DNA from: Eledone cirrhosa
Lineage: Eukaryota
Direction of reading: 5' to 3'
Assembly (NCBI GenBank): GCA_964016885.1
Contig: OZ024744.1
Location: forward strand, 10,416,001 to 10,480,000
Length of the DNA stretch: 64,000 nucleotides
This document shows positions 1 to 64,000 of this stretch, piece after piece. A program made the translations under genes and the position numbers. Positions within the stretch are counted from its first letter, which is position 1, and each line of letters starts with the position of its first letter. The notes under the pieces were generated by a model. That model had not been told where the DNA came from. It searched no databases and saw only the letters and a list, made by a program, of their open reading frames with translations.

Positions 1-1385
1 TTGTGTTGTTGTACTCCAATATGTTGTGTTTTTGTAATCCAATATGTAATGTTGTTGTACTCCAATACATCGTGTTGTACTCCAATATGTTGTGTTGTTG
101 TTGTAATCCAATATCTTGTGTTGTTATACTCCAATATGTTGTGTTGTTATACTCCAATATGTTGTATTGTTGATCTCCAATAAGTTGTGTTCTTGTACTC
201 CAATATATTGTGTTGTTGTACTCCAATATGTTGTGTTGTTGTACTCCAATATATCATGTTGTCGTACTCCAATATGTCATGTTATACTCCAATATGTCGT
301 TGTTATACTCCAATATGTCATGATGTTGTACTCCAATATGTCGTGTTCTTGTACTCCAATATGTCGTGTTGTCGTACTCCAATATGTTGTGTTGTTGTAC
401 TCCAATATGTTGTGTTGTTGTACTCCAATATGTTGTGTTGTTATACTCCAATATGTTGTGCTGTTGTACTCCAATATTTCGTGTTGTTGTACTCCAATAC
501 ATCGTGTTGTACTCCAATATGTTGTGTTGTTGTTGTAATCCAATATCTTGTGTTGTTATACTCCAATATGTTGTGTTGTTATACTCCAATATGTTGTGTT
601 GTGATACTCCAATATGTTGTGCTGTTGTACTCCAATATGTTGAGTTGTTATACTCCAATATGTAGTGTTGTTATACTCCAATATGTTGTGTTGTTGTACT
701 CCAATATGTTGTATTGTTGATCTCCAATAAGTTGTGTTCTTGTACTCCAATATATTGTGTTGTTGTACTCCAATATGTTGTGTTTTTGTAATCCAATATG
801 TAATGTTGTTGTACTCCAATATGTCTTGTTATATTCCAATATGTCGTGTTGTTGTACTCCAATATGTCATGTTGTTGTACTCCAATATTTCTTGTTGTTG
901 TACCCCAATATGTCGTGTTGATTATACTCCAATTTTTGTTGCTGTTGTACTCCAATATGTTGTGTTGTTGTACTCCAATATGTTGTGTTGTTGTACTCCA
1001 ATATGTTGTGTTGTTGTACTCCAATATGTTGTGTTGTTATTCTCCAATATGTTGTGCTGTTGTACTCCAATGTGTTATGTTGTTATACTCCAATATGTTG
1101 TGCTGTGATACTCCAATATGTTGTGTTGTTGTACTCCAATCTGTTGTGTTGTAATACTCCAATATGTTATGTTGTTTTACTCCAATATGTTGTGTTGTTG
1201 TACTCCAATATGTTGTGTTGTTGTACTCCAATATGTTGTGTTGTTGTAATCCAATATGTTGTGTTGTTATACTCCAATATGTTGTGTTGTTGTTCTCCAA
1301 TATGTCGTGTTGTTATACTCCAATATGTTGTGTTATGATACTCCAATATGTTGTGCTGTTGTACTCCAATATGTTGTGTTGTTAT

Positions 1386-1569
1386 ACTCCAATATGTAGT
1401 GTTGTTATACTCCAATATGTTGTGTTGTTGTACTCCAATCTGTTGTGTTGTTATACTCCAATATGTTGTGTTGTTATACTCCAATATGTAGTGTTGTTAT
1501 ACTCCAATATGTTGTGTTGTTGTACTCCAATCTGTTGTGTTGTTATACACCAATATGTTGTGTTGTTAT
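1386..1569 (+). repeat. 92-bp (4-monomer) tandem duplication
   Basis: The GTAG variant occurs at 1396 and 1488, each followed two monomers later by CCAATCTG. The same doublet is seen near 7500-7680 and 18255-18440. Confidence 0.85.
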
Positions 1570-3599
1570 ACTCCAATATGTTGTGTTGTTTTACTCCAAT
1601 ATGTTGTGTTGCTGTACTCCAATATGTTGTGTTGTTGTACTCCAATATGTTGTGCTGCTGTACTCCAATATATTGTGTTATACTCCAATATGTTGTGTTG
1701 TTGTACTCCAATATGTTGTGTTGTTGTAATCCAAAATGTTGTGTTGTTATACTCCAATATGTTGTGTTGTAATACTCCAATATGTTGTGCTCCAATATGT
1801 TGTGTTATACTCCAATGTGTTGTGTTCTTGTACTCCAATATGAAGTGTTGTAATACTCCAATATGTAGTGCTGTTGTTATACTCCAATATGTTGTGTTAT
1901 AATCCAATGTGTTGTGTTGTTGTACTCAAATCTGTTGTGTTGTTATACTCCAATCTGTTGTGTTGTTATACTGCAATATGTTGTGTTGTTATACTCCAAT
2001 ATGTTGTGTTTTTGTACTCCAATATGTTGTGTTGTTGTACTCCAATATGTTGTGTTGTTGTAATCCAATATCTTGTGCTGTTATACTCCAATATGTTGTG
2101 TTGTTGTACTCCAATATGTTGTGTTGTTATACTCCAATATGTTGTGTTGTGATACTCCAAAGTGTTGTGCTGTTGTACTCCAATATGTTGTGTTGTTTTA
2201 CTCCAATAGGTTGCGTTGTTGTACTCCAATCTGTTGTGTTGTTATACTCCAATATGTTGTGTTGTTATACTCCAATATGGTGTGTTGTTTTACTCCAATA
2301 TGTTGTGTTGTTGCAATCCAATATGTTTGTGTTGTTTTACTCCAATATGTTGTGTTGTTATACTCAAATATGTTGTGTTGTTGTACTCCAATATGGTGTG
2401 TTGTTGTACTCCAATATGTTGTGTTGTTGTACTCCAATATGTTGTGTTGTTATACTCCAATATGTTGTGTTGGTGTACTCCAATATGTTGTGCTGTTGAA
2501 CTCCAAATCTCGTGTTGTTATACTCCAATGTGTTGTGTTGTTATACTCCAATATGTTGTGTTGTTGTACTCCAATATGTTGTGTTGTTGTACTCCAATAT
2601 GTTGTGTTGTTGTACTCCAATATGTGATGTTGTTGTACTCCAATATGTCGTGATGTTGTACTCCAATATGTTGTGTTGTTATACTCCAATATTTCGTGTT
2701 GTTTTACTCCAATATGTCATGGTGTTGTACTCCAATATTTCGTGTGGTTGTATTCCAATATGTCATGGTGTTGTACTTCAATATGTCGTATTGTTGTACT
2801 CCAATATGTTGTGTTGTTGTTCTCCAATATGTCGTGTTGTTATACTCCAATATGTTATGATGTTGGACTCCAATATATTGTGTTGTTGTACTCCAATATG
2901 TTGTGTTTTTGTAATCCAATATGTAATGTTGTTGTACTCCAATATGTCTTGTTATAGTCCAATATGTCGTGTTGTTGTACTCCAATATGTCATGTTGTTG
3001 TACTCCAATATTTCGTGTTGTTGTACCCCAATATGTCGTGTTGATTATACTCCAATTTTTGTTGCTGTTGTACTCCAATATGTTGTGTTGTTGTACTCCA
3101 ATCTGTTGTGTTGTTATTCTCCAATATGTTGTGCTGTTGTACTCCAATGTGTTATGTTGTTATACTCCAATATGTTGTGCTGTGATACTCCAATATGTTG
3201 TGTTGTTGTACTCCAATCTGTTGTGTTGTTATACTCCAATATGTTGTGTTGTTATACTCCAATATGTTGTGTTGTTTTACTCCAATATGTTGTGTTGTTG
3301 TACTCCAATATGTTGTGTTGTTGTACTCCAATATGTTGTGTTGTTGTAATCCAATATCTTGTGTTGTTATACTCCAATATGTTGTGTTGTTGTACTCCAA
3401 TATGTTGTGTTGTTGTTCTCCAATATGTCGTGTTGTTATACTCCAATATGTTGTGTTATGATACTCCAATATGTTGTGCTGTTGTACTCCAATATTTTGT
3501 GTAGTTATACTCCAATATGTAGTGTTGTTATACTCCAATATGTTGTGATGTTGTACTCCAATCTGTTGTGTTGTTATACTCCATTATGTTGTGTTGTTA

Positions 3600-5040
3600 T
3601 ACTCCAATATATTGTGTTGTTGTACTCCAATAGGTTGTGTTGTTGTACTCCAATATGTTGTGTTGTTATACTCCAATATGTTGTGTTGTTATACTCCCAA
3701 AAGTTGTGTTGTTTTACTCCAATATGTTGTGTTGTTATACTCCAGTATGTTGTGTTGTTGTACTCCAATATGTTGTGATGTTGCACTCCAAAATGTTGTG
3801 TTGTTGTACTCCAATATGTTGTGTTGTTGTACTCCAATACGTTGTGTTGTTGTACTCCAATATTTTGTGCTGTTATACTCCAATATGTTGTGTTGTTATA
3901 CTCCAAAAAGTTGTGTTGTTTTACTCCAATATGTTGTGTTGTTATACTCCAGTATGTTGTGTTGTTGTACTCCAATATGTTGTGTTGTTGTACTCCAATA
4001 TGTCATGTTATACTCCAATATGTCATGTTGTTTTACTCCAATATGTTGTGTTGTTGCACTCCAATATGTCGTGTTGTTGTACTCCAATATGTTGTGTTTT
4101 TGTACTCCAATATGTTGTGTTGTTATACTCCAATATGTTGTGCTGTTGTACTCCAATATGTCAGGTTGTTGTACTCCGATATTTCGTGTTGTTCTACTCC
4201 AATATTTCGTGTTGTTTTACTCCAATATGTCGTGGTGTTGTACTCCAATATGTTTTGATGTTGTACTCCAATATGTCGTGTTGTTGTACTCCAATATGTT
4301 GTGTTGTTGAACTCCAATATGCTGTGTTGTTATACTCCTAAATGTTGTGTTGTTGTACTCCAATATGTTGTGTTGTACTCCAATATGTTGTGTTGTTACA
4401 CTCCACAATTTTGTGTTGTTGTACTCCAAAATGTGATGTTGTTGTACTCCAATATGTCGTATTGTTGTACTCCAATATGTTGCGTTGTTATACTCCAATA
4501 TTTCGTGTTGTTTTACTCCAATATGTCGTGTTTTTGTACTCCAATATATTGTGTTGTTGTACTCCAATATGTTGTGTTGTTGTACTCCAATATGTTGTGT
4601 TGTTATACTCCAATATGTTGTGTTGTTATACTCCAAAAAGTTGTGTTGTTTTACTCCAATATGTTGTGCTGTTATACTCCAGTATGTTGTGTTGTTGTAC
4701 TCCAATATTTTGTGATGTTGTACTCCAATATGTTGTGTTGTTGTACTCCAATATGTTGTGTTGTTGTACTCCAATACGTTGTGTTGTTGTACTCCAATAT
4801 TTTGTGCTGTTATACTCCAATATGTTGTGTTGTTATACTCCAAAAAGTTGTGTTGTTTTACTCCAATATGTTGTGTTGTTATACTCCAGTATGTTGTGTT
4901 GTTGTACTCCAATATGTTGTGTTGTTGTACTCCAATATGTCATGTTATACTCCAATATGTCATCTTGTTTTACTCCAATATGTTGTGTTGTTGCACTCCA
5001 ATATGTCGTGTTGTTGTACTCCAATATGTTGTGTTTTGTA
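3600..5040 (+). repeat. Block pair at +937 bp, each containing a 207-bp (9-monomer) internal duplication
   Basis: The AAAAGTTG...CCAGTATG marker occurs at ~3699, ~3906, ~4636 and ~4843 (spacings 207 and 937). ORFs 3689 and 4626 match. Confidence 0.85.
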
Positions 5041-5249
5041 CTCCAATATGTTGTGTTATTGTACTCCAATATGCTGTGCTGTTGTACTCCAATATGTTAT
5101 GTTGTACTCCAATATGTTGTGTTGTTGTACTCCAATATATCATGTTGTCATACTCCAATATGTCATGTTATACTCCAATATGTCGTTGTTATACTCCAAT
5201 ATGTCATGTTGCTGTACTCCAATATGCCGCGCTGTTGTACTCCAATATG

Positions 5250-8200
5250 TTGTGTTGTTATTCTCCAATATGTTGTGCTGTTGTACTCCAATGTGTTATG
5301 TTGTTATACTCCAATATGTTGTGCTGTGATACTCCAATATGTTGTGTTGTTGTACTCCAATCTGTTGTGTTGTTATACTCCAATATGTTGTGTTGTTATA
5401 CTCCAATATGTTGTGTTGTTTTACTCCAATATGTTTTGTTGTTGTACTCCAATATGTCGTGTTGTTGTACTCCAATATGTTGTGTTGTTGTAATCCAATA
5501 TCTTGTGTTGTTATACTCCAATATGTTGTGTTGTTGTACTCCAATATGTTGTGTTGTTGTTCTCCAATATGTCGTGTTGTTATACTCCAATATGTTGTGT
5601 TATGATACTCCAATATGTTGTGCTGTTGTACTCCAATATGTTGTGTTGTTATACTCCAATATGTAGTTTTGTTATACTCCAATATGTTTTGTTGTTGTAC
5701 TCCAATCTGTTGTGTTGTTATACTCCAATATGTTGTGTTGTTATACTCCAATATGTTGTGTTGTTTTACTCCAATATGTTGTGTTGTTGTACTCCAATAT
5801 GTTGTGTTGTTGTACTCCAATATATCATGTTGTCGTACTCCAATATGTCATGTTATACTCCAATATGTCGTTGTTATACTCCAATATGTCATGATGTTGT
5901 ACTCCAATATGTCGTGTTCTTGTGCTCCAATATGTCGTGTTGTCGTACTCCAATATGTTGTGTTGTTGTACTCCAATATGTTTTGTTGTTGTACTCCAAT
6001 ATGTTGTGTTGTTATACTCCAATATGTTGTGCTGTTGTACTCCAATATTTCGTGTTGTTGTACTCCAATACATCGTGTTGTACTCCAATATGTTGTGTTG
6101 TTGTTGTACTCCAATATGTTTTGATGTTGTACTCCAATATGTTGTGTTGTTGTACTCCAATATGTTGTGTAGTCATACTCCAATACGTTGTGTTGTTGTA
6201 CTCCAATATGATGTGATGTTGTACTCCAATATGATGTGCTGTTGTACTCCAATGCGTTGTGTTGTTGTACTCCAATGTGTTGTGTTGTTATACTCCAATA
6301 TGTTGTGTTGTTATACTCCAATATGTTGTGCTGTTGTACTCCAAATCTCGTGTTGTTATACTCCAATGTGTTGTGTTGTTATACTCCAATATGGTGTGTT
6401 GTTGTACTCCAATATGTTGTATTATTTTTCTCCAATATGCCATGTTATACTCCAATATGTTGTGTTCGTGTACTCCAATATGTTGTGTTATTGTACTCCA
6501 ATATGTTGCGTTGTTGTACTCCAATATGTTGTGTTGTTATACTCCAATATGTTGTGTTGTTGTACTCCTATATGTTGTCTTGTTGTACTCCAAAAGGTCA
6601 TATTATTGTACTCCAATATGTATTGTTATACTCCAATATGTCGTGTGTCTGTACTCCAATATGTCATTTTGTTGTACTCCAATATGTCTTGTTATAGTCC
6701 AATATGTCGTGTTGTTGTACTCCAATATGTCATGTAGTTGTACTCCAATATTTCGTGTTGTTATACCCCAATATGTCGTGTTGTTTATACTCCAATATGT
6801 TTTGCTGTTGTACTCCAATATGTTGTGTTGCTGTACTCCAATATGTTGTGTTGTTGTACTCCAATATGTTGTGTTGTTGTAATCCAATATCTTGTGTTGT
6901 TATACTCCAATATGTTGTGTTGTTATACTCCAATATGTTGTGTTGTGATACTCCAATATGTTGTGCTGTTGTACTCCAATATGTTGAGTTGTTATACTCC
7001 AATATGTAGTGTTGTTATACTCCAATATGTTGTGTTGTTGTACTCCAATCTGTTGTGTTATACTCCAATATGTTGTGTTGTTATACTCCAATATGTTGTG
7101 TTGTTGTACTCCAATATGTTGTGTTGTTATTCTCCAATATGTTGTGCTGTTGTACTCCAATGTGTTATGTTGTTATACTCCAATATGTTGTGCTGTGATA
7201 CTCCAATATGTTGTGTTGTTGTACTCCAATCTGTTGTGTTGTTATACTCCAATATGTTGTGTTGTTATACTCCAATATGTTATGTTGTTTTACTCCAATA
7301 TGTTGTGTTGTTGTACTCCAATATGTTGTGTTGTTGTACTCCAATATGTTGTGTTGTTGTAATCCAATATGTTGTGTTGTTATACTCCAATATGCTGTGT
7401 TGTTGTTCTCCAATATGTCGTGTTGTTATACTCCAATATGTTGTGTTATGATACTCCAATATGTTGTGCTGTTGTACTCCAATATGTTGTGTTGTTATAC
7501 TCCAATATGTAGTGTTGTTATACTCCAATATGTTGTGTTGTTGTACTCCAATCTGTTGTGTTGTTATACTCCAATATGTTGTGTTGTTATACTCCAATAT
7601 GTAGTGTTGTTATACTCCAATATGTTGTGTTGTTGTACTCCAATCTGTTGTGTTGTTATACTCCAATATGTTGTGTTGTTATACTCCAATATGTTGTGTT
7701 GTTTTACTCCAATATGTTGTGTTACTGTACTCCAATATGTTGTGTTGTTGTACTCCAATATGTTGTGCTGCTGTACTCCAATATATTGTGTTATACTCCA
7801 ATATGTTGTGCTGTTGTACTCCAATATGTTGTGTTGTTATACTCCAATATGTAGTGTTGTTATACTCCAATATGTTGTGTTGTTGTACTCCAATATGTTG
7901 TGTTGTTATACTCCAATATGTTGTGTTGTTATACTCCAATATGTAGTGTTGTTATACTCCAATATGTTGTGTTGTTGTACTCCAATATGTTGTGTTGTTG
8001 TAATCCAAAATGTTGTGTTGTTATACTCCAATATGTTGTGTTGTAATACTCCAATATGTTGTGTTATACTCCAATGTGTTGTGTTCTTGTACTCCAATAT
8101 GAAGTGTTGTAATACTCCAATATGTAGTGCTGTTGTTATACTCCAATATGTTGTGTTATAATCCAATGTGTTGTGTTGTTGTACTCCAATCTGTTGTGTT

Positions 8201-11200
8201 GTTATACTCCAATCTGTTGTGTTGTTATACTGCAATATGTTGTGTTGTTATACTCCAATATGTTGTGTTGTTATACTCCAAGATGTTGTGCTGTGATACT
8301 CTAATATGTTGTGTTTCTGTACTCCAATATGTTGTGTTGTTGTACTCCAATATGTTGTGTTGTTGTAATCCAATATCTTGTGCTGTTATACTCCAATATG
8401 TTGTGTTGTTGTACTCCAATATGTTGTGTTGTTATACTCCAATATGTTGTGTTGTGATACTCCAAAGTGTTGTGCTGTTGTACTCCAATATGTTGTGTTG
8501 TTTTACTCCAATAGGTTGCGTTGTTGTACTCCAATCTGTTGTGTTGTTATACTCCAATATGTTGTGTTGTTATACTCCAATATGGTGTGTTGTTTTACTC
8601 CAATATGTTGTGTTGTTGCAATCCAATATGTTTGTGTTGTTTTACTCCAATATGTTGTGTTGTTATACTCCAATATGTTGTGTTGTTATACTCAAATATG
8701 TTGTGTTGTTGTACTCCAATATGGTGTGTTGTTGTACTCCAATATGTTGTGTTGTTGTACTCCAATATGTTGTGTTGTTATACTCCAATATGTTGTGTTG
8801 GTGTACTCCAATATGTTGTGCTGTTGAACTCCAAATCTCGTGTTGTTATACTCCAATGTGTTGTGTTGTTATACTCCAATATGTTGTGTTGTTGTACTCC
8901 AATATGTTGTGTTGTTGTACTCCAATATGTTGTGTTGTTGTACTCCAATATGTTGTGTTGTTGTACTCCAATATGTGATGTTGTTGTACTCCAATATGTC
9001 GTGATGTTGTACTCCAATATGTTGTGTTGTTATACTCCAATATTTCGTGTTGTTTTACTCCAATATGTCATGGTGTTGTACTCCAATATTTCGTGTGGCT
9101 GTATTCCAATATGTCATGGTGTTGTACTTCAATATGTCGTATTGTTGTACTCCAATATGTTGTGTTGTTGTTCTCCAATATGTCGTGTTGTTATACTCCA
9201 ATATGTTATGATGTTGGACTCCAATATATTGTGTTGTTGTACTCCAATATGTTGTGTTTTTGTAATCCAATATGTAATGTTGTTGTACTCCAATATGTCT
9301 TGTTATAGTCCAATATGTCGTGTTGTTGTACTCCAATATGTCATGTTGTTGTACTCCAATATTTCTTGTTGTTGTACCCCAATATGTCGTGTTGATTATA
9401 CTCCAATTTTTGTTGCTGTTGTACTCCAATATGTTGTGTTGTTGTACTCCAATCTGTTGTGTCGTTATTCTCCAATATGTTGTGCTGTTGTACTCCAATG
9501 TGTTATGTTGTTATACTCCAATATGTTGTGCTGTGATATTCCAATATGTTGTGTTGTTGTACTCCAATCTGTTGTGTTGTTATACTCCAATATGTTGTGT
9601 TGTTATACTCCAATATGTTGTGTTGTTTTACTCCAATATGTTGTGTTGTTGTACTCCAATATGTTGTGTTGTTGTAATCCAATATCTTGTGTTGTTATAC
9701 TCCAATATGTTGTGTTGTTGTACTCCAATATGTTGTGTTGTTGTTCTCCAATATGTCGTGTTGTTATACTCCAATATGTTGTGTTATGATACTCCAATAT
9801 GTTGTGCTGTTGTACTCCAATATTTTGTGTTGTTATACTCCAATATGTAGTGTTGTTATACTCCAATATGTTGTGTTGTTGTACTCCAATCTGTTGTGTT
9901 GTTATACTCCAATATGTTGTGTTGTTATACTCCAATATGTTGTGTTGTTTTACTCCAATATGTTGTGTTGTTGTACTCCAATATGTTGTATTGTTGTTCT
10001 CCAATATGTCATGTTATACTCCAATAAGTTGTGTTCTTGTACTCCAATATGTTGTGTTGTTGTACTCCAATATGTTGTGTTGTTGTACTCCAATATATCA
10101 TGTTGTCGTACTCCAATATATCATGTTATACTCCAATGTGTCGTTGTTATACTCCAATATGTCATGATGTTGTACTCCAATATGTCGTGTTCTTGTACTC
10201 CAATATGTCGTGTTGTCGTACTCCAATATATTGTGTTGTTGTACTCCAATATGTTATGTTGTTGTACTCCAATATGTTGTGTTGTTATACTCGAATATGT
10301 TGTGTTGTTATACTCCCAAAAGTTGTGTTGTTTTACTCCAATATGTTGTGTTGTTATACTCCAGTATGTTGTGTTGTTGTACTCCAATATGTTGTGATGT
10401 TGTACTCCAAAATGTTGTGTTGTTGTACTCCAATATGTTGTGTTGTTGTACTCCAATACGTTGTGTTGTTGTACTCCAATATTTTGTGCTGTTATACTCC
10501 AATATGTTGTGTTGTTATACTCCAAAAAGTTGTGTTGTTTTACTCCAATATGTTGTGTTGTTATACTCCAGTATGTTGTGTTGTTGTACTCCAATATGTT
10601 GTGTTGTTGTACTCCAATATGTCATGTTATACTCCAATATGTCATGTTGTTTTACTCCAATATGTTGTGTTGTTGCACTCCAATATGTCGTGTTGTTGTA
10701 CTCCAATATGTTGTGTTTTGTACTCCAATATGTTGTGTTATTGTACTCCAATATGTTGTGTTGTTATACTCCAATACGCTGTGCTGTTGTACTCCAATAT
10801 GTTATGTTATACTCCAATATGCTGTGTTGTTGTACTCCAATATATCATGTTGTCGTACTCCAATATGTCATGTTATACTCCAATATGTCGTTGATATACT
10901 CCAATATGTCGTGTTGCTGTACTCCAATATGCCGCGCTGTTGTACTCCAATATGTTTTGATGTTGTACTCCAATATGTTGTGTTGTTGTACTCCAATATG
11001 TTGTGTTGTTGTACTCCAATATGTTGTGTTGTTATACTCCAATATGTTGTGCTGTTGTACTCCAATATGTCAGGTTGTTGTACTCCGATATTTCGTGTTG
11101 TTCTACTCCAATATTTCGTGTTGTTTTACTCCAATACGTCGTGGTGTTGTACTCCAATATGTTTTGATGTTGTACTCCAATATGTCGTGTTGTTGTACTC

Positions 11201-17200: not shown

Positions 17201-17530
17201 CCCCAATATGTCGTGTTGTTTATACTCCAATATGTTTTGGTGTTGTACTCCAATATGTTGCGTTGCTATACTCCAATATGTTGTGTTGTTGTACTCCAAT
17301 ATGTTGTGTTGTTGTAATCCAATATCTTGTGTTGTTATACTCCAATATGTTGTGTTGTTATACTCCAATATGTTGTGTTGTGATACTCCAATATGTTGTG
17401 CTGTTGTACTCCAATATGTTGAGTTGTTATACTCCAATATGTAGTGTTGTTATACTCCAATATGTTGTGTTGTTGTACTCCAATCTGTTGTGTTATACTC
17501 CAATATGTTGTGTTGTTATACTCCAATATG
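5250..17530 (+). repeat. Dispersed ~1.8-kb block pair (about 5250-7100 vs 15660-17530), offset about 10435
   Basis: 5503..6216 matches 15938..16651 and 6236..6697 matches 16671..17132. Both blocks carry the rare AAAAGGTCATATTATTG monomer. Confidence 0.87.
13791..13872 (+). repeat. 41-bp (18+23) dimer duplicated in tandem
   Basis: ACTCCAATATGTTGTTGT plus ACTCCAACATGTTGTGTTGTTGT occurs twice in a row; paralogs lie at ~34897 and ~51603. Confidence 0.9.
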
Positions 17531-36100: not shown

Positions 36101-37769
36101 ATATGCTGTGTTGTTATACTCCTATATGTTGTGCTGTTGTACTCCAATATGTTGTGTTGTACTCCAATATGTTGTGTTGTTATACTCCAATATTTCGTGT
36201 TGTTTTACTCCAATATGTCATGTTGTTGTACTCCAATATTTCGTGTTGCTGTACTCCAATATGTCATGGTGTTGTACTTCAATATGTCGTATTGTTGTAC
36301 TCCAATATGTTGTGTTGTTGTTCTCCAATATGTCGTGTTGTTATACTCCAATATGTTATGATGTTGGACTCCAATATATTGTGTTGTTGTACTCCAATAT
36401 GTTGTTTTTGTAATCCAATATGTAATGTTGTTATACTCCAATATGTCTTGTTATAGTCCAATATGTCGTGTTGTTGTACTCCAATATGTCATGTTGTTGT
36501 ACTCCAATATTTCGTGTTGTTGTACCCCAATATGTCGTGTTGATTATACTCCAATTTTTGTTGCTGTTGTACTCCAATATGTTGTGTTGTTGTACTCCAA
36601 TATGTTGTGTTGTTATTCTCCAATATGTTGTGCTGTTGTACTCCAATGTGTTATGTTGTTATACTCCAATATGTTGTGCTGTGATACTCCAATATGTTGT
36701 GTTGTTGTACTCCAATCTGTTGTGTTGTTATACTCCAATATGTTGTGTTGTTATACTCCAATATGTTGTGTTGTTTTACTCCAATATGTTTTGTTGTTGT
36801 ACTCCAATATGTTGTGTTGTTGTACTCCAATATGTTGTGTTGTTGTAATCCAATATCTTGTGTTGTTATACTCCAATATGTTGTGTTGTTGTACTCCAAT
36901 ATGTTGTGTTGTTGTTCTCCAATATGTCGTGTTGTTATACTCCAATATGTTGTGTTATCATACTCCAATATGTTGTGCTGTTGTACTCCAATATGTTGTG
37001 TTGTTGTACTCCAATATGTAGTTTTGTTATACTCCAATATGTTTTGTTGTTGTACTCCAATCTGTTGTGTTGTTATACTCCAATATGTTGTGTTGTTATA
37101 CTCCAATATGTTGTGTTGTTTTACTCCAATATGTTGTGTTGTTGTACTCCAATATGTTGTGTTGTTGTACTCCAATATATCATGTTGTCGTACTCCAATA
37201 TGTCATGTTATACTCCAATATGTCGTTGTTATACTCCAATATGTCATGATGTTGTACTCCAATATGTCGTGTTCTTGTACTCCAATATGTCGTGTTGTCG
37301 TACTCCAATATGTTGTGTTGTTGTACTCCAATATGTTGTGTTGTTGTACTCCAATATGTTGTGTTGTTATACTCCAATATGTTGTGCTGTTGTACTCCAA
37401 TATTTCGTGTTGTTGTACTCCAATACATCGTGTTGTACTCCAATATGTTGTGTTGTTGTTGTACTCCAATATGTTTTGATGTTGTACTCCAATATGTTGT
37501 GTTGTTGTACTCCAATATGTTGTGTAGTCATACTCCAATACGTTGTGTTGTTGTACTCCAATATGATGTGATGTTGTACTCCAATATGATGTGCTGTTGT
37601 ACTCCAATGCGTTGTGTTGTTGTACTCCAATCTGTTGTGTTATACTCCAATATGTTGTGTTGTTATACTCCAATATGTTGTGTTGTTATACTCCAATATG
37701 TTGTGTTGTTGTACTCCAATATGTTGTATTGTTGATCTCCAATAAGTTGTGTTCTTGTACTCCAATATA

Positions 37770-52700: not shown

Positions 52701-55700
52701 CATGTTGTCCTCCGATATTTCGTGTTATTGTACTCCAATATTTCGTGTTGTTGTACTCCAATATGTTGTGTTTTTGTACTCCAATATGTTTTGATGTTGT
52801 ACTCCAATATGTTGTGTTGTTGTACTCCAATATGTTGTGTTGTTATACTCCAATATGCTGTGTTGTTATACTCCTATATGTTGTGCTGTTGTACTCCAAT
52901 ATGTTGTGTTGTACTCCAATATGTTGTTTTGTTATACTCCAATATGTTGTGTTGTTGTACTCCAATATGTTGTGTTGTTGTACTCCAATATATGATGTTG
53001 TTGTACTCCAATATGTCGTGATGTTGTACTCCAATATGTTGTGTTGTTATACTCCAATATTTCGTGTTGTTTTACTCCAATATGTCATGTTGTTGTACTC
53101 CAATATTTCGTGTTGCTGTACTCCAATATGTCATGGTGTTGTACTTCAATATGTCGTATTGTTGTACTCCAATATGTTGTGTTGTTGTTCTCCAATATGT
53201 CGTGTTGTTATACTCCAATATGTTATGATGTTGGACTCCAATATATTGTGTTGTTGTACTCCAATATGTTGTGTTTTTGTAATCCAATATGTAATGTTGT
53301 TATACTCCAATATGTCTTGTTATAGTCCAATATGTCGTGTTGTTGTACTCCAATATGTCATGTTGTTGTACTCCAATATTTCGTGTTGTTGTACCCCAAT
53401 ATGTCGTGTTGATTATACTCCAATTTTTGTTGCTGTTGTACTCCAATATGTTGTGTTGTTGTACTCCAATATGTTGTGTTGTTATTCTCCAATATGTTGT
53501 GCTGTTGTACTCCAATGTGTTATGTTGTTATACTCCAATATGTTGTGCTGTGATACTCCAATATGTTGTGTTGTTGTACTCCAATCTGTTGTGTTGTTAT
53601 ACTCCAATATGTTGTGTTGTTATACTCCAATATGTTGTGTTGTTTTACTCCAATATGTTTTGTTGTTGTACTCCAATATGTTGTGTTGTTGTACTCCAAT
53701 ATGTTGTGTTGTTGTAATCCAATATCTTGTGTTGTTGTAATCCAATAACTTGTGTTGTTATACTCCAATATGTTGTGTTGTTGTACTCCAATATGTTGTG
53801 TTGTTGTTCTCCAATATGTCGTGTTGTTATACTCCAATATGTTGTGTTATGATACTCCAATATGTTGTGCTGTTGTACTCCAATATGTTGTGTTGTTATA
53901 CTCCAATATGTAGTTTTGTTATACTCCAATATGTTTTGTTGTTGTACTCCAATCTGTTGTGTTGTTATACTCCAATATGTTGTGTTGTTATACTCCAATA
54001 TGTTGTGTTGTTTTACTCCAATATGTTGTGTTGTTGTACTCCAATATGTTGTGTTGTTGTACTCCAATATATCATGTTGTCGTACTCCAATATGTCATGT
54101 TATACTCCAATATGTCGTTGTTATACTCCAATATGTCATGATGTTGTACTCCAATATGTCGTGTTCTTGTACTCCAATATGTCGTGTTCTTGTACTCCAA
54201 TATGTTGTGTTGTTGTACTCCAATATGTTGTGTTGTTGTACTCCAATATGTTGTGTTGTTATACTCCAATATGTTGTGCTGTTGTACTCCAATATTTCGT
54301 GTTGTTGTACTCCAATACATCGTGTTGTACTCCAATATGTTGTGTTGTTGTTGTACTCCAATATGTTTTGATGTTGTACTCCAATGTGTTGTGTTGTTGT
54401 ACTCCAATATGTTGTGTAGTCATACTCCAATACGTTGTGTTGTTGTACTCCAATATGATGTGATGTTGTACTCCAATATGATGTGCTGTTGTACTCCAAT
54501 GCGTTGTGTTGTTGTACTCCAATGTGTTGTGTTGTTATACTCCAATATGTTGTGTTGTTATACTCCAATATGTTGTGCTGTTGTACTCCAAATCTCGTGT
54601 TGTTATACTCCAATGTGTTGTGTTGTTATACTCCAATATGGTGTGTTGTTGTACTCCAATATGTTGTATTGTTTTTCTCCAATATGCCATTTTATACTCC
54701 AATATGTTGTGTTCGTGTACTCCAATATGTTGTGTTCGTGTACTCCAATATGTTGTGTTATTGTACTCCAATATGTTGCGTTGTTGTACTCCAATATGTT
54801 GTGTTGTTGTACTCCTATATGTTGTCTTGTTGTACTCCAAAAGGTCATATTATTGTACTCCAATATGTATTGTTATACTCCAATATGTCGTGTGTCTGTA
54901 CTCCAATATGTCATTTTGTTGTACTCCAATATGTCTTGTTATAGTCCAATATGTCGTGTTGTTGTACTCCAATATGTCATGTAGTTGTACTCCAATATTT
55001 CGTGTTGTTGTACCCCAATATGTCGTGTTGTTTATACTCCAATATGTTTTGGTGTTGTACTCCAATATGTTGCGTTGCTATACTCCAATATGTTGTGTTG
55101 TTGTACTCCAATATGTTGTGTTGTTGTAATCCAATATCTTGTGTTGTTATACTCCAATATGTTGTGTTGTTATACTCCAATATGTTGTGTTGTGATACTC
55201 CAATATGTTGTGCTGTTGTACTCCAATATGTTGAGTTGTTATACTCCAATATGTAGTGTTGTTATACTCCAATATGTTGTGTTGTTGTACTCCAATCTGT
55301 TGTGTTATACTCCAATATGTTGTGTTGTTATACTCCAATATGTTGTGTTGTTATACTCCAATATGTTGTGTTGTTGTACTCCAATATGTTGTATTGTTGA
55401 TCTCCAATAAGTTGTGTTCTTGTACTCCAATATATTGTGTTGTTGTACTCCAATATGTTGTGTTTTTGTAATCCAATATGTAATGTTGTTGTACTCCAAT
55501 ATGTCTTGTTATATTCCAATATGTCGTGTTGTTGTACTCCAATATGTCATGTTGTTGTACTCCAATATTTCTTGTTGTTGTACCCCAATATGTCGTGTTG
55601 ATTATACTCCAATTTTTGTTGCTGTTGTACTCCAATATGTTGTGTTGTTGTACTCCAATATGTTGTGTTGTTGTACTCCAATATGTTGTGTTGTTATTCT

Positions 55701-58700
55701 CCAATATGTTGTGCTGTTGTACTCCAATGTGTTATGTTGTTATACTCCAATATGTTGTGCTGTGATACTCCAATATGTTGTGTTGTTGTACTCCAATCTG
55801 TTGTGTTGTTATACTCCAATATGTTGTGTTGTTATACTCCAATATGTTATGTTGTTTTACTCCAATATGTTGTGTTGTTGTACTCCAATATGTTGTGTTG
55901 TTGTACTCCAATATGTTGTGTTGTTGTAATCCAATATGTTGTGTTGTTATACTCCAATATGTTGTGTTGTTGTTCTCCAATATGTCGTGATGTTATACTC
56001 CAATATGTTGTGTTATGATACTCCAATATGTTGTGCTGTTGTACTCCAATATGTTGTGTTGTTATACTGCAATATGTAGTGTTGTTATACTCCAATATGT
56101 TGTGTTGTTGTACTCCAATCTGTTGTGTTGTTATACTCCAATATGTTGTGTTGTTATACTCCAATATGTAGTGTTGTTATACTCCAATATGTTGTGTTGT
56201 TGTACTCCAATCTGTTGTGTTGTTATACTCCAATATGTTGTGTTGTTATACTCCAATATGTTGTGTTGTTTTACTCCAATATGTTGTGTTGCTGTACTCC
56301 AATATGTTGTGTTGTTGTACTCCAATATGTTGTGCTGCTGTACTCCAATATATTGTGTTATACTCCAATATGTTGTGTTGTTGTACTCCAATATGTTGTG
56401 TTGTTGTAATCCAAAATGTTGTGTTGTTATACTCCAATATGTTGTGTTGTAATACTCCAATATGTTGTGCTCCAATATGTTGTGTTATACTCCAATGTGT
56501 TGTGTTCTTGTACTCCAATATGAAGTGTTGTAATACTCCAATATGTAGTGCTGTTGTTATACTCCAATATGTTGTGTTATAATCCAATGTGTTGTGTTGT
56601 TGTACTCCAATCTGTTGTGTTGTTATACTCCAATCTGTTGTGTTGTTATACTGCAATATGTTGTGTTGTTATACTCCAATATGTTGTGTTGTTGTACTCC
56701 AATATGTTGTGTTGTTGTAATCCAATATGTTGTGTTGTTATACTCCAATATGTTGTGTTGTTATACTCCAATATGTTGTGTTGTGATACTCCAATATGTT
56801 GTGCTGTTGTACTCCAATATGTTGAGTTGTTATACTCCAATATGTAGTGTTGTTATACTCCAATATGTTGTGTTGTTGTACTCCAATCTGTTGTGTTATA
56901 CTCCAATATGTTGTGTTGTTATACTCCAATATGTTGTGTTGTTATACTCCAATATGTTGTGTTGTTTTACTCCAATATGTTGTGTTGTTGTACTCCAATA
57001 TGTTGTATTGTTGATCTCCAATAAGTTGTGTTCTTGTACTCCAATATATTGTGTTGTTGTACTCCAATATGTTGTGTTTTTGCAATCCAATATTTAATGT
57101 TGTTGTACTCCAATATGTCTTGTTATATTCCAATATGTCGTGTTGTTGTACTCCAATATGTCATGTTGTTGTACTCCAATATTTCTTGTTGTTGTACCCC
57201 AATATGTCGTGTTGATTATACTCCAATTTTTGTTGCTGTTGTACTCCAATATGTTGTGTTGTTGTACTCCAATATGTTGTGTTGTTGTACTCCAATATGT
57301 TGTGTTGTTATTCTCCAATATGTTGTGCTGTTGTACTCCAATGTGTTATGTTGTTATACTCCAATATGTTGTGCTGTGATACTCCAATATGTTGTGTTGT
57401 TGTACTCCAATCTGTTGTGTTGTTATACTCCAATATGTTGTGTTGTTATACTCCAATATGTTATGTTGTTTTACTCCAATATGTTGTGTTGTTGTACTCC
57501 AATATGTTGTGTTGTTGTACTCCAATATGTTGTGTTGTTGTAATCCAATATCTTGTGTTGTTATACTCCAATATGTTGTGTTGTTGTACTCCAATATGTT
57601 GTGTTGTTGTTCTCCAATATGTCGTGTTGTTATACTCCAATATGTTGTGTTATGATACTCCAATATGTTGTGCTGTTGTACTCCAATATGTTGTGTTGTT
57701 ATACTCCAAGATGTAGTGTTGTTATACTCCAATATGTTGTGTTGTTGTACTCCAATATGTTGTGTTGTTATACTCCAATATGTTGTGTTGTTATACTCCA
57801 ATATGTAGTGTTGTTATACTCCAATATGTTGTGTTGTTGTACTCCAATCTGTTGTGTTGTTATACTCCAATATGTTGTGTTGTTATACCCCAATATGTTG
57901 TGTTGTTTTACTCCAATATGTTGTGTTGCCATACTCCAATATGTTGTGTTGTTGTACTCCAATATGTTGTGCTGCTGTACTCCAATATATTGTGTTATAC
58001 TCCAATATGTTGTGTTGTTGTACTCCAATATGTTGTGTTGTTGTAATCCAAAATGTTGTGTTGTTATACTCCAATATGTTGTGTTGTAAAACTCCAATAT
58101 GTTGTGCTCCAATATGTTGTGTTATACTCCAATGTGTTGTGTTCTTGTACTCCAATATGAAGTGTTGTAATACTCCAATATGTAGTGCTGTTGTTATACT
58201 CCAATATGTTGTGTTATAATCCAATGTGTTGTGTTGTTGTACTCCAATCTGTTGTGTTGTTATACTCCAATCTGTTGTGTTGTTATACTGCAATATGTTG
58301 TGTTGTTATACTCCAATATGTTGTGTTGTTATACTCCAAGATGTTGTGCTGTGATACTCTAATATGTTGTGTTTTTGTACTCCAATATGTTGTGTTGTTG
58401 TACTCCAATATGTTGTGTTGTTATACTCCAAATATGCTGTGCTGTTGTACTCCAATATGTTGTGTTGTACTCCAATATGTTGTGTTGTTGTACTCCAATA
58501 TATCATGTTGTCGTACTCCAATATGTCATGTTATACTCCAATATGTCGTTGTTATACTCCAATATGTCATGTTGCTGTACTCCAATATGTCGTGTTGTTG
58601 TACTCCAATATGTTTTGATGTTGTACTCCAATATGTTGTGTTGTTGTACTCCAATATGTTGTGTTGTTATACTCCAATATGTTGTGCTGTTGTACTCCAA

Positions 58701-61700
58701 TATGTCAGGTTGTTGTACTCCGATATTTCGTGTTGTTCTACTCCAATATTTCATGTTGTTTTACTCCAATATGTCGTGGTGTTGTACTCCACAATGTTGT
58801 GTTGTTGTACTCCAATAGGTTGTGTTGCTGTACTCCAATATGTTGTGTTGTTGTTCTCCAATATGTCGTGTTGTTATACTCCAATATGTTGTGTTATTGT
58901 ACTCCAATATGTTGTGTTGTTATACTCCAATATGCTGTGCTGTTGTACTCCAATATGTTATGTTATACTCCAATATGTTGTGTTGTTGTACTCCAATATA
59001 TCATGTTGTCGTACTCCAATATGTCATGTTATACTCCAATATGTCGTTGTTATACTCCAATATGTCGTGTTGCTGTACTCCAATATGCCGCGCTGTTGTA
59101 CTCCAATATGTTTTGATGTTGTACTCCAATATGTTGTGTTGTTGTACTCCAATATGTTGTGTTGTTGTACTCCAATATGTTGTGTTGTTATATTCCAATA
59201 TGTTGTGCTGTTGTACTCCAATATGTCAGGTTGTTGTACTCCGATATTTCGTGTTGTTCTACTCCAATATTTCGTGTTGTTTTACTCCAATACGTCGTGG
59301 TGTTGTACTCCAATATGTTTTGATGTTGTACTCCAATATGTCGTGTTGTTGTACTCCAATATGTTGTGTTGTTGAACTCCAATATGCTGTGTTGTTATAC
59401 TCCTAAATGTTGTGTTGTTGTACTCCAATATGTTGTGTTGTACTCCAATATGTTGTGTTGTTACACTCCACAATGTTGTGTTGTTGTACTCCAAAATGTG
59501 ATGTTGTTGTACTCCAATATGTCGTATTGTTGTACTCCAATATGTTGTGTTGTTATACTCCAATATTTCGTGTTGTTTTACTCCAATATGTCATGTTGTT
59601 GTACTCCAATATTTCGTGTTGTTGTACTCCAATATGTCATGGTGTTGTACTTCAATATGTCGTATTGTTGTACTCCAGTATGTTGTGTTGTTGTTCTCCA
59701 ATATGTCGTGTTGTTATACTCCAATATGTTATGATGTTGTACTCCAATATATTGTGTTGTTGTACTCCAATATGTTGTGTTGTTATACTCCAATATGTTG
59801 TGTTATTTTACTCCAATATGTTGTGTTGTTGTATTCCAATATGTTGTGTTGTTGTACTCCAATATGTTGTGTTGTTGTACTCCAATATGTTGTGTTGTTG
59901 TAATCCAATATCTTGTGTTGTTGTTCTCCAATATGTTGTGTTGTTATACTCCAATATGTCGTGTTGTGATACTCCAATATGTTGTGCTGTTGTACTCCAA
60001 TATGTGTTGTTGTTGTACTCCAATATGTTGCGTTGTTGTACTCCAATATATCATGTTGTCGTACTCCAATATGTCATGTTATACTCCAATATGTTTTGAT
60101 GCTGTACTCCAATATGTTGTGTTGTTGTACTACAATATGTTGTGTTGTTGAACTCCAATATGTTGTTTTTTGTACTCCAATATGTCATGTTGTTGTACTC
60201 CAGTATGTCTTGTTATACTCCAATATGTCGTGTTGCTGTACTCCAATATGTCATGATGTTGTACTCCAATATGTTTTGCTGTTGTACTCCAATATGTTGT
60301 GTTGCTGTACTCCAATATGTTGTGTTGTTGTACTCCAATATGTTGTGTTGTTGTAATCCAATATCTTGTGTTGTTATACTCCAATATGTTGTGTTGTTAT
60401 ACTCCAATATGTTGTGTTGTGATACTCCAATATGTTGTGCTGTTGTACTCCAATATGTTGAGTTGTTATACTCCAATATGTAGTGTTGTTATACTCCAAT
60501 ATGTTGTGTTGTTGTACTCCAATCTGTTGTGTTATACTCCAATATGTTGTGTTGTTATACTCCAATATGTTGTGTTGTTATACTCCAATATGTTGTGTTG
60601 TTTTACTCCAATATGTTGTGTTGTTGTACTCCAATATGTTATATTGTTGATCTCCAATAAGTTGTGTTCTTGTACTCCAATATATTGTGTTGTTGTACTC
60701 CAATATGTTGTGTTTTTGCAATCCAATATTTAATGTTGTTGTACTCCAATATGTCTTGTTATATTCCAATATGTCGTGTTGTTGTACTCCAATATGTCAT
60801 GTTGTTGTACTCCAATATTTCTTGTTGTTGTACCCCAATATGTCGTGTTGATTATACTCCAATTTTTGTTGCTGTTGTACTCCAATATGTTGTGTTGTTG
60901 TACTCCAATATGTTGTGTTGTTGTACTCCAATATGTTGTGTTGTTATTCTCCAATATGTTGTGCTGTTGTACTCCAATGTGTTATGTTGTTATACTCCAA
61001 TATGTTGTGCTGTGATACTCCAATATGTTGTGTTGTTGTACTCCAATCTGTTGTGTTGTTATACTCCAATATGTTGTGTTGTTATACTCCAATATGTTAT
61101 GTTGTTTTACTCCAATATGTTGTGTTGTTGTACTCCAATATGTTGTGTTGTTGTACTCCAATATGTTGTGTTGTTGTAATCCAATATCTTGTGTTGTTAT
61201 ACTCCAATATCTTGTGTTGTTGTACTCCAATATGTTGTGTTGTTGTTCTCCAATATGTCGTGTTGTTATACTCCAATATGTTGTGTTATGATACTCCAAT
61301 ATGTTGTGCTGTTGTACTCCAATATGTTGTGTTGTTATACTCCAAGATGTAGTGTTGTTATACTCCAATATGTTGTGTTGTTGTACTCCAATATGTTGTG
61401 TTGTTATACTCCAATATGTTGTGTTGTTATACTCCAATATGTTGTGTTGTTATACTCCAATATGTTGTGTTGTTGTACTCCAATCTGTTGTGTTGTTATA
61501 CTCCAATATGTTGTGTTGTTATACCCCAATATGTTGTGTTGTTTTACTCCAATATGTTGTGTTGCCATACTCCAATATGTTGTGTTGTTGTACTCCAATA
61601 TGTTGTGCTGCTGTACTCCAATATATTGTGTTATACTCCAATATGTTGTGTTGTTGTACTCCAATATGTTGTGTTGTTGTAATCCAAAATGTTGTGTTGT

Positions 61701-64000
61701 TATACTCCAATATGTTGTGTTGTAAAACTCCAATATGTTGTGCTCCAATATGTTGTGTTATACTCCAATGTGTTGTGTTCTTGTACTCCAATATGAAGTG
61801 TTGTAATACTCCAATATGTAGTGCTGTTGTTATACTCCAATATGTTGTGTTATAATCCAATGTGTTGTGTTGTTGTACTCCAATCTGTTGTGTTGTTATA
61901 CTCCAATCTGTTGTGTTGTTATACTGCAATATGTTGTGTTGTTATACTCCAATATGTTGTGTTGTTATACTCCAAGATGTTGTGCTGTGATACTCTAATA
62001 TGTTGTGTTTTTGTACTCCAATATGTTGTGTTGTTGTACTCCAATATGTTGTGTTGTTGTAATCCAATATATTGTGCTGTTATACTCCAATATGTTGTGT
62101 TGTTGTACTCCAATATGTTGTGTTGTTATACTCCAATATGTTGTGTTGTGATACTCCAAAGTGTTGTGCTGTTGTACTCCAATATGTTGTGTTGTTTTAC
62201 TCCAATAGGTTGCGTTGTTGTACTCCAATCTGTTGTGTTGTTATACTCCAAAATGTTATGTTGTTATACTCCAATATGGTGTGTTGTTTTACTCCAATAT
62301 GTTGTGTTGTTGCAATCCAATATGTTTGTGTTGTTTTACTCCAATATGTTGTGTTGTTATACTCAAATATGTTGTGTTGTTGTACTCCAATATGGTGTGT
62401 TGTTGTACTCCAATATGTTGTGTTGTTGTACTCCAATATGTTGTGTTGTTATACTCCAATATGTTGTGTTGGTGTACTCCAATATGTCGTGCTGTTGAAC
62501 TCCAAATCTCGTGTTGTTATACTCCAATTTGTTGTGTTGTTATACTCCAATATGTTGTGTTGTTGTACTCCAATATGTTGTGTTGTTGTACTCCAATATG
62601 TTGTGTTGTTGTACTCCAATATGTTGTGTTGTTGTACTCCAATATGTCATGTTATACTCCAATATGTCATGTTGTTTTACTCCAATATGTTGTGTTGTTG
62701 CACTCCAATATGTCGTGTTGTTGTACTCCAATATGTTGTGTTGTTGTACTCCAATATGTTGTGTTGTTATACTCCAATATGCTGTGCTGTTGTACTCCAA
62801 TATGTTGTGTTGTACTCCAATATGTTGTGTTGTTGTACTCCAATATATCATGTTGTCGTACTCCAATATGTCATGTTATACTCCAATATGTCGTTGTTAT
62901 ACTCCAATATGTCATGTTGCTGTACTCCAATATGTCGTGTTGTTGTACTCCAATATGTTTTGATGTTGTATTCCAATATGTTGTGTTGTTGTACTCCAAT
63001 ATGTTGTGTTGTTATACTCCAATATGTTGTGCTGTTGTACTCCAATATGTCAGGTTGTTGTACTCCGATATTTCGTGTTGTTCTACTCCAATATTTCATG
63101 TTGTTTTACTCCAATATGTCGTGGTGTTGTACTCCAATATGTTTTGATGTTGTACTCCAATATGTCGTGTTGTTGTACTCCAATATGTTGTGTTGTTGAA
63201 CTCCAATATGCTGTGTTGTTATACTCCTATATGTTGTGTTGTTGTACTCCAATATGTTGTGTTGTACTCCAATATGTTGTGTTGTTATACTCCACAATGT
63301 TGTGTTGTTGTACTCCAATAGGTTGTGTTGTTGTACTCCAATATGTGATGTTGTTGTACTCCAATATGTCGTATTGTTGTACTCCAATATGTTGTGTTGT
63401 TATACTCCAATATTTCGTGTTGTTTTACTCCAATATGTCATGTTGTTGTACTCCAATATCTCGTGTTGTTGTACTCCAATATGTCATGGTGTTCTACTTC
63501 AATATGTCGTATTGTTGTACTCCAATATGTTGTGTTGTTGTTCTCCAATATGTCGTGTTGTTATACTCCAATATGTTATGATGTTGTACTCCAATATATT
63601 GTGTTGTTGTACTCCAATATGTTGTGCTGTTGTACTCCAATGTGTTATGTTGTTATACTCCAATATGTTGTGCTGTGATACTCCAATATGTTGTGTTGTT
63701 GTACTCCAATCTGTTGTGTTGTTATACTCCAATATGTTGTGTTGTTATACTCCAATATGTTATGTTGTTTTACTCCAATATGTTGTGTTGTTGTACTCCA
63801 ATATGTTGTGTTGTTGTACTCCAATATGTTGTGTTGTTGTAATCCAATATGTTGTGTTGTTATACTCCAATATGTTGTGTTGTTGTTCTCCAATATGTCG
63901 TGATGTTATACTCCAATATGTTGTGTTATGATACTCCAATATGTTGTGCTGTTGTACTCCAATATGTTGTGTTGTTATACTGCAATATGTAGTGTTGTTA
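37770..64000 (+). repeat. ~37.8-kb higher-order repeat, copy 2 (partial, equivalent to 1-26188)
   Basis: Rare markers recur at +37812: AAAAGGTCATATTATTG at ~6592 and ~44404, again at ~17027 and ~54839; CCAAATATGCTG at ~20616 and ~58428. ORF translations are nearly identical. Confidence 0.97.

What the first reader, a model, noticed from the sequence alone, without database searches (positions are those of the whole stretch)
1..64000. Giant ~37.8-kb higher-order repeat built from a 23-bp monomer
Seen: 1-26188 recurs at 37770-64000 almost exactly, so one unit holds on the order of 1,650 monomers. Established: typical primate alpha-satellite higher-order repeats have a few to tens of ~171-bp monomers. 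Inference: this array currently expands by very large, recent block duplication (unequal exchange, break-induced replication or rolling-circle reinsertion), which makes it a candidate actively homogenizing centromeric or heterochromatic array. Only ~1.7 periods are visible, so it could instead be a single tandem segmental duplication.
Basis: partly seen in the sequence, partly recalled or inferred. Interest (0 to 1): 0.75.

Follow-up and report, generated by a model that had tools for sequence, protein, structure and literature searches.

The report
One-off 38-kb duplication inside 23-bp satellite
The 37.8-kb stretch occurs exactly twice, side by side, inside a 1.7-million-base run of one 23-letter repeat that holds more than two dozen similar two-copy blocks (one of 60 kb), so it is likely an ordinary young duplication of the kind repeat arrays keep making, not a giant repeating unit.

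Summary
In detail: window 1-26188 recurs about 37.8 kb later. With the flanks, the repeat is two tandem copies (window -1614..36154 and 36155..73989, about 1,660 monomers each) that differ by 8 substitutions and 3 whole-monomer indels. There is no third period: the junction 51-mer occurs once and a unit-specific 45-mer twice in the 3.0-Gb genome. The breakpoints sit in a 397-bp segment shared at both ends, so homology-directed misalignment is the likely cause. The host array is a single-locus, single-orientation 23-bp satellite of about 1.67 Mb in a likely octopod. In the 1.59 Mb read it carries 26 tandem blocks of 4 kb or more (none above 2.6 copies), a 60-kb tandem duplication and a 77-kb block repeated 104 kb away. 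So this is not a giant higher-order repeat but one of many nested one-off duplications, as in plant and human satellite arrays. Read depth could not be tested, so an assembly artefact stays possible (about 10%). A centromere role is untested. The scan already noted the same reading for another part of this array (e1-10309920) and for another satellite in this genome (e1-9909488).

The parts
1..64000 (+). 23-bp satellite, one orientation; part of an array running G000:C28:10,159,650-11,849,370 with a 21-kb interruption (about 1.67 Mb of satellite)
   Evidence: TRF; array ends; no reverse-strand monomer in the DNA read; dimer pattern 4,419 forward and 0 reverse genome-wide
1..36154 (+). Copy A of the tandem duplication (begins 1,615 bases left of the window, at window -1614; 37,769 bp; 1,659 monomers)
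36155..64000 (+). Copy B of the tandem duplication (continues to window 73,989; 37,835 bp)
36126..36405 (+). Junction between the copies: the middle copy of a 397-bp segment that also stands whole before A (window -1760..-1364) and after B (73,959..74,355), here lacking five monomers (115 bp); its 51-mer is unique in the genome
38808..38830 (+). Extra 23-bp monomer in B (absent at A 1039)
42189..42208 (+). Extra 20-bp variant monomer in B (absent at A 4397)
7895..34233 (+). Span of the eight A/B substitutions (A positions 7895, 8242, 15646, 22757, 26096, 27949, 28598, 34233); a third monomer indel at A 33268 / B 71080
12053..32287 (+). Older, shorter duplications nested inside the unit (for example 12053-13620 at offset 6,888; 19425-20561 at 11,726; 18184-20619 at 7,913; 19194-20610 at 3,636), with irregular spacing
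   Evidence: monomer autocorrelation peaks at only 0.12

Best explanation
The 37.8-kb repeat is a single tandem pair inside a single-locus 23-bp satellite array, likely made once and recently when a broken or slipped DNA strand paired out of register with an identical 397-bp segment 37.9 kb away (unequal sister exchange or break-induced template switch). Shown: two copies only, in-phase breakpoints in a shared 397-bp segment, 8 substitutions and 3 monomer indels between the copies plus a 5-monomer loss at the junction, and many such blocks of other sizes along the array. Inferred: that the event is homology-directed repair, that the differences accumulated after it, and that repeated events of this kind (5 to 100 kb) are how this array grows and forms its local blocks of similarity.
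For: Two copies: junction 51-mer 1 match and unit-specific 45-mer 2 matches genome-wide; 97.6% of sampled 100-mers of copy A recur at +37.5 to 38 kb, at most 16.5% at any other offset, and 0.9-6.3% at the offsets where a third copy would sit. Homologous, in-phase breakpoints: 397-bp exact segment before A and after B, present whole in only these 2 places in the DNA read; monomers at the junction are whole. Context counts mark 6 of the 8 substitutions as derived in A and 2 in B, so both copies have changed independently. Not unique: 26 tandem blocks with period of 4 kb or more cover 34.5% of 1,588,736 array bases read; 11 of the other 25 have fewer substitutions per base than this one; a 60.2-kb tandem duplication (61,229 bp walked, 26 substitutions) and about 77 kb repeated at a 102-104-kb offset are larger. 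Across the 26 blocks 32 of the 33 indels with a net length of 7 bp or more are monomer-sized. The array shows local similarity blocks, not one period. The same mutation type (whole-unit tandem duplications, homogenised blocks from them) is documented in Arabidopsis centromeres (10.1101/2025.06.02.657473, sections read).
Against: No reads could be laid, so the pair is known from one assembly only. The event is larger than the de novo events in the papers read (Arabidopsis insertions of 1-31 units, mean 1,870 bp; human 680-12,228 bp). Six of the 8 substitutions are transversions against 28 of the other 80 in the pooled blocks, which could hint at consensus errors. Sequence alone cannot separate unequal exchange from break-induced replication. 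80 kb of the array (C28:11.58-11.66 Mb) was only sampled, though the genome-wide pattern counts cover it.
Confidence: 0.83

Rival explanations
1. Assembly artefact: the two copies are the two haplotypes, or one stretch laid twice, placed in tandem by the assembler.
For: 0.021% divergence is within what alleles could show; several other blocks in the array are identical over 8-26 kb, which a loop walked twice would also give; read depth untested.
Against: No N in the 1.46 Mb and 0.2 Mb read. The copies differ at sites never more than 7.4 kb apart, so long reads can tell them apart. The ends share only 397 bp, and the junction carries a private 115-bp loss, which an overlap error would not be expected to invent (inference). 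Block divergences form a continuum from 0 to 0.11%, as serial real events would. In Arabidopsis, replicated assemblies had few centromere errors (10.1101/2025.06.02.657473, section read).
Confidence: 0.1
2. A true giant higher-order repeat: 37.8 kb is the array's working unit, or the seed of one that will go on being amplified.
For: The two units are 99.98% alike while monomers differ from consensus at 1.7 of 23 bases. Elsewhere in the array a roughly 12.8-kb period does run for about 6.6 irregular copies (C28:10.253-10.337 Mb), so large units can be amplified more than once.
Against: Only two copies in the genome. The unit is itself a patchwork of shorter duplications with 256 monomer strings, the commonest 218 times. 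Periods change along the array.
Confidence: 0.04
3. Rolling-circle amplification and reinsertion of an excised 37.9-kb satellite circle.
For: An excised circle formed through the 397-bp direct repeat and reinserted in place would give the same two-copy product (inference).
Against: Rolling-circle copying is expected to leave runs of three or more copies or copies elsewhere; the 26 strict blocks reach at most 2.64 copies, all in one orientation and one locus.
Confidence: 0.03

Closest known systems
Periodicity-preserving tandem duplications and homogenised blocks in Arabidopsis CEN178 arrays (10.1101/2025.06.02.657473; abstract and three Results sections read)
   Same: Whole units added as copies of adjacent sequence, periodicity kept, local blocks of similarity hundreds of kb long, homology-directed repair as the proposed cause.
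   Different: Monomer 23 bp against 178 bp; blocks here reach 38-60 kb (about 1,660-2,600 monomers) against 1-31 units in the mutation-accumulation lines; here inferred from one assembly, not observed across generations; centromere function unknown.
Structural turnover of human alpha-satellite arrays (PMC12240836, passages; 10.64898/2026.09.03.749043, passages and part 1 of one section)
   Same: Frequent kb-scale gains and losses in whole units; structural change high relative to substitutions; older shared sequence kept at the array edge.
   Different: Human arrays have a fixed higher-order unit that the events multiply; this array has none. De novo human events read about were 0.7-12.2 kb.
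Canonical alpha-satellite higher-order repeats (HORmon, PMC9248890; passages)
   Same: Units far more alike than the monomers inside them.
   Different: Canonical units repeat about 1,500 to thousands of times with each monomer type once per unit; this one occurs twice and reuses monomer types hundreds of times.
Local, low-frequency HORs of maize CentC and similarity blocks of maize knobs (PMC13011684; abstract and Discussion read)
   Same: Higher-order patterns that are local and of low copy number and are not a sign of centromere function; large blocks ascribed to unequal crossing over.
   Different: Maize local patterns average about 4 monomers; this block is about 400 times longer.

Membership tests
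Canonical higher-order repeat (alpha-satellite type) | Unit repeated in tandem many times | tested here: not met
   Two copies; junction 51-mer 1, unit 45-mer 2 matches genome-wide; no third diagonal
Canonical higher-order repeat (alpha-satellite type) | Units more alike than the monomers within them | tested here: met
   8 substitutions in 37.8 kb against a mean 1.7 mismatches per 23-bp monomer
Canonical higher-order repeat (alpha-satellite type) | Ordered set of distinct monomer types, each once per unit | tested here: not met
   256 strings among 1,659 monomers, top two 218 and 202 times; internal duplications
Canonical higher-order repeat (alpha-satellite type) | One dominant period across the array | tested here: not met
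   Periods of 4-60 kb differ from place to place
Periodicity-preserving tandem duplication in a satellite array | Added sequence is a copy of the adjacent sequence | tested here: met
   B follows A directly, 99.98% alike
Periodicity-preserving tandem duplication in a satellite array | Monomer phase kept; breakpoints in homologous sequence | tested here: met
   Whole monomers at the junction; 397-bp shared segment; 32 of 33 larger indels monomer-sized
Periodicity-preserving tandem duplication in a satellite array | Supported by reads or by a haplotype lacking the second copy | not testable with these tools
   Run search gave only contigs holding 0.13-0.40 of the words and reduced-representation reads; the read-laying tool does not take long repeats
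Functional satellite centromere | CENP-A chromatin and a methylation dip on the array | not testable with these tools
   No chromatin data
Functional satellite centromere | Megabase-scale, homogeneous, one-orientation array | tested here: met
   About 1.67 Mb, one orientation; necessary-looking but not sufficient
Functional satellite centromere | Repeat shared by the centromeres of the other chromosomes (usual, not universal; recalled) | tested here: not met
   4,192 of 4,419 genome-wide dimer matches lie in the DNA read here, and the unread 80 kb would hold about the remaining 227 at local density
Assembly false duplication | Halved read depth, no read across the junction | not testable with these tools
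   See above
Assembly false duplication | Gap or long exact overlap at the join | tested here: not met
   No N; 397 bp of shared sequence, with a 115-bp loss in the junction copy

The most novel reading that the evidence does not exclude
This is a young, chromosome-specific centromeric satellite of an octopod that grows in jumps of 5-100 kb, several times larger than the de novo events reported in plants and humans, and it carries its own clock: a 21-kb copy of the array's unique right flank, only 0.14% diverged, splits it, yet the 0.92-Mb right part stays co-linear with the left part for only about 700 bp, so nearly a megabase of satellite was built or remodelled in the time unique DNA changed by 0.14%.
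Probability: 0.15. Interest if true: 0.55.

Novelty: new member of a known kind. Interest (0 to 1): 0.2.

Why it matters
As a giant higher-order repeat it does not stand. What remains is a clean example of how a short-monomer satellite grows by large one-off duplications, in a group (octopods, inferred) for which my searches listed no paper on centromeric satellites. The array's many datable blocks and its duplicated unique flank would let someone with reads from several animals measure satellite turnover against point mutation. It is also a caution for window-based scans: 1.7 visible periods of a large unit is what any young duplication looks like.

Tried and rejected
Third period at about -37.8 kb or +75.6 kb: rejected. 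Junction as 21-bp microhomology, my first reading: corrected, it is a 397-bp homologous segment with a later or concurrent 5-monomer loss. Fixed basic higher-order unit inside the 37.8 kb: not found, best monomer-lag agreement 0.12 against a median 0.022. Coding role: 327 open frames of 100 aa or more, none above 429 aa, overlapping in all frames, by-products of a stop-poor monomer. Origin of the 23-mer from the abutting 108-bp satellite: similarity not above shuffles (137 and 104 of 2,000 reach the score). The two halves of the array as two haplotypes laid in tandem: unlikely, they share 16-18% of 200-mers and are co-linear for only about 700 bp. Literature for the monomer: 0 papers hold a 13-base piece of it; one search on break-induced duplication sizes gave 0 papers. 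My block counts miss most periods under 4 kb because seeds were 200-mers present at most 40 times, and the first whole-array table cut long matches for the same reason; one search extended them. One row of the 27 lies in the 108-bp satellite and was dropped from the count of 26.

Full report
Observation. The window is one uninterrupted 23-bp satellite, 34% GC. Its first 26,188 bases recur on three neighbouring diagonals, 37,769, 37,792 and 37,812, the steps being whole monomers. The longest exact matches on this diagonal are 7,403 and 7,110 bp; the best elsewhere in the window is 1,137 bp.

Place. The window is G000:C28:10,416,001-10,480,000 in a 3.0-Gb assembly; C28 is 136.5 Mb. Haemocyanin domains in runs of seven point to an octopod-type mollusc (that octopods have seven units and squids and snails eight is recalled, not from a call). 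I read C28:10,116,001-11,580,000 and 11,660,001-11,860,000 in full and sampled beyond. The array starts at about 10,159,650, directly against a 108-bp satellite, and ends at about 11,849,370, with one 21-kb interruption. A two-monomer pattern has 4,419 forward and 0 reverse matches genome-wide; 4,192 of them lie in the DNA read, and the unread 80 kb would hold about the rest at local density. The satellite is therefore a single-locus, single-orientation array of about 1.67 Mb. No N was found in what was read.

How many periods. With flanks, copy A is window -1614..36154 (37,769 bp) and copy B 36155..73989 (37,835 bp). They differ by 8 substitutions (0.021%) and 3 monomer-sized insertions in B. 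A 51-mer across the junction has 1 match in the genome and a unit-specific 45-mer has 2, at the expected spacing. Of sampled 100-mers of A, 97.6% recur one period on, at most 16.5% at any other offset, and 0.9-6.3% where a third copy would lie.

Breakpoints. At first sight the copies overlap by 21 bp. In fact a 397-bp segment stands identical just before A and just after B (offset 75,719; only these 2 whole copies in the DNA read), and the junction holds a third copy lacking five monomers. The simplest history is out-of-register pairing of two 397-bp twins 37,884 bp apart, then or with it a 115-bp loss. Array-wide context counts mark 6 substitutions as new in A and 2 in B, so both copies have changed since. 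That the event was homology-directed repair is inference; unequal sister exchange and break-induced replication predict the same product.

Inside the unit. It has no fixed sub-period: 256 monomer strings, the two commonest 13.1% and 12.2%, and monomer-lag agreement peaking at 0.12. It is a patchwork of older 1.6-11.7-kb duplications.

The rest of the array. Chaining exact matches gives 26 tandem blocks with periods of 4 kb or more, covering 547,633 of 1,588,736 array bases read; none exceeds 2.64 copies. Their substitution divergence runs from 0 to 0.108%, and 11 of the other 25 are lower than the 37.8-kb pair (one of these was walked only in part). Looser chaining adds a 60.2-kb tandem duplication (0.042%), about 77 kb repeated 102-104 kb away, and a stretch with about 6.6 irregular copies of a 12.8-kb period. 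The 37.8-kb pair is the largest block that passed strict chaining but neither the largest nor the youngest overall. Pooled over the 26 blocks, 32 of 33 indels of 7 bp or more net length are monomer-sized, and 54 of 88 substitutions are transitions. A 100-mer sharing map shows local similarity blocks of 0.1-0.8 Mb. Counts for periods under 4 kb are too low by construction.

An internal clock. The 21-kb interruption is a copy of the unique DNA right of the array, 12 mismatches in 8,680 columns. Yet the satellite left of each copy is co-linear for only about 700 bp, and only 16-18% of the right part's 200-mers occur in the left part. If the assembly is right, about 0.92 Mb of satellite was built or remodelled since an event only about seven times more diverged than the 37.8-kb pair. 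This is inference from one assembly.

Artefact. I could not test read depth: the run search returned contigs holding 0.13-0.40 of the words and reduced-representation reads, and the read-laying tool does not take long repeats. Against an artefact: no gap, distinguishing sites at most 7.4 kb apart, only 397 bp of shared sequence at the ends, a private loss at the junction, and a continuum of block ages. For it: allele-like divergence, 6 of 8 substitutions being transversions against 28 of the other 80, and several difference-free blocks nearby. I leave it at about 10%.

Comparison. It works like the whole-unit tandem duplications seen arising in Arabidopsis CEN178 arrays, which in simulation build homogenised blocks (10.1101/2025.06.02.657473; abstract and Results sections 5, 7, 11 read), and like the unit-multiple gains in human alpha satellite (PMC12240836, passages; 10.64898/2026.09.03.749043, passages and part 1 of section 14). 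It is three to five times larger than the largest de novo event in those passages (12.2 kb), though the same sources mention array variants above 10 kb and deletions of 0.4-0.6 Mb. It is not a member of the canonical higher-order repeats, whose units repeat about 1,500 times or more with each monomer once (PMC9248890, passages). Maize shows that local, low-copy higher-order patterns are common and do not mark centromere function (PMC13011684, abstract and Discussion). No supplements were opened; satellite catalogues in supplements could hold this monomer unseen. A full-text search for a 13-base piece found 0 papers, and searches for cephalopod centromeric satellites listed none on the subject (listings only).

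Earlier notes of this scan (two searches gave nothing), consulted after my reading was formed: e1-10309920 reached the same view on another part of this array, e1-9909488 on a 31-kb duplication in another satellite of this genome; e1-10347674 and e1-10311083 mention a more abundant 196-bp repeat and an 8.4-Mb satellite block on this contig as centromere candidates. I did not test those two; they lower, as leads only, the odds that this array is the centromere.

Verdict. Observation confirmed; giant higher-order repeat not supported; one-off young tandem duplication in a serially duplicating single-locus satellite, confidence 0.83. New member of a known kind, interest 0.2.

Noticed in passing
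G000:C28:10,911,250-10,932,232 (L114-L116) and 11,849,400-11,878,900: The array is interrupted by a 21-kb copy of its own unique right flank (12 mismatches in 8,680 aligned columns, 0.14%); the copy breaks off and runs straight into satellite with no gap. The two array ends are co-linear for only about 700 bp.
   Followed up: partly
G000:C28:10,710,977-10,832,403: A 60.2-kb tandem duplication, larger than the finding: 26 substitutions and 9 other differences over 61,229 bp.
   Followed up: yes
G000:C28:11,311,248-11,492,513: About 77 kb repeated at a 102-104-kb offset (20 substitutions in 76,940 bp walked), with younger 8.7- and 10.5-kb duplications between the copies.
   Followed up: partly
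G000:C28:10,252,727-10,337,500: A roughly 12.8-kb period (12.3-13.2 kb) running for about 6.6 irregular copies, with a 25,682-bp exact match at offset 25,515 inside it; the nearest thing to a giant higher-order repeat in this array.
   Followed up: partly
G000:C28:11,268,939-11,312,634: A 21.8-kb tandem pair with no difference at all; either extremely young or an assembly loop.
   Followed up: no
G000:C28:10,103,000-10,159,650 (L063, L064, L036-L040): A 108-bp, 26% GC satellite abuts the array directly; it also occurs on other contigs (2,561 matches of a 29-mer, C10, C18 and C20 among the first listed) and holds its own 5.8-kb tandem duplication.
   Followed up: partly
L063:3971-8320 (G000:C28:about 10,105,000-10,109,300): An LTR-retrotransposon-type element (reverse transcriptase, RNase H, integrase in that order, split over several frames) inserted in the 108-bp satellite.
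   Followed up: partly
G000:C28:10,082,000-10,103,000 (L061-L063): A third tandem repeat of roughly 43 bp by eye, about 42% GC, left of the 108-bp satellite; similar sequence in reverse orientation at samples 9.6 and 9.9 Mb.
   Followed up: no
G000:C1:173.7-173.9 Mb and C26:21.9-22.0 Mb: Clusters of molluscan haemocyanin domains in runs of seven (three runs on C1, two on C26), the basis for calling the animal a likely octopod (the seven-unit rule is recalled).
   Followed up: partly
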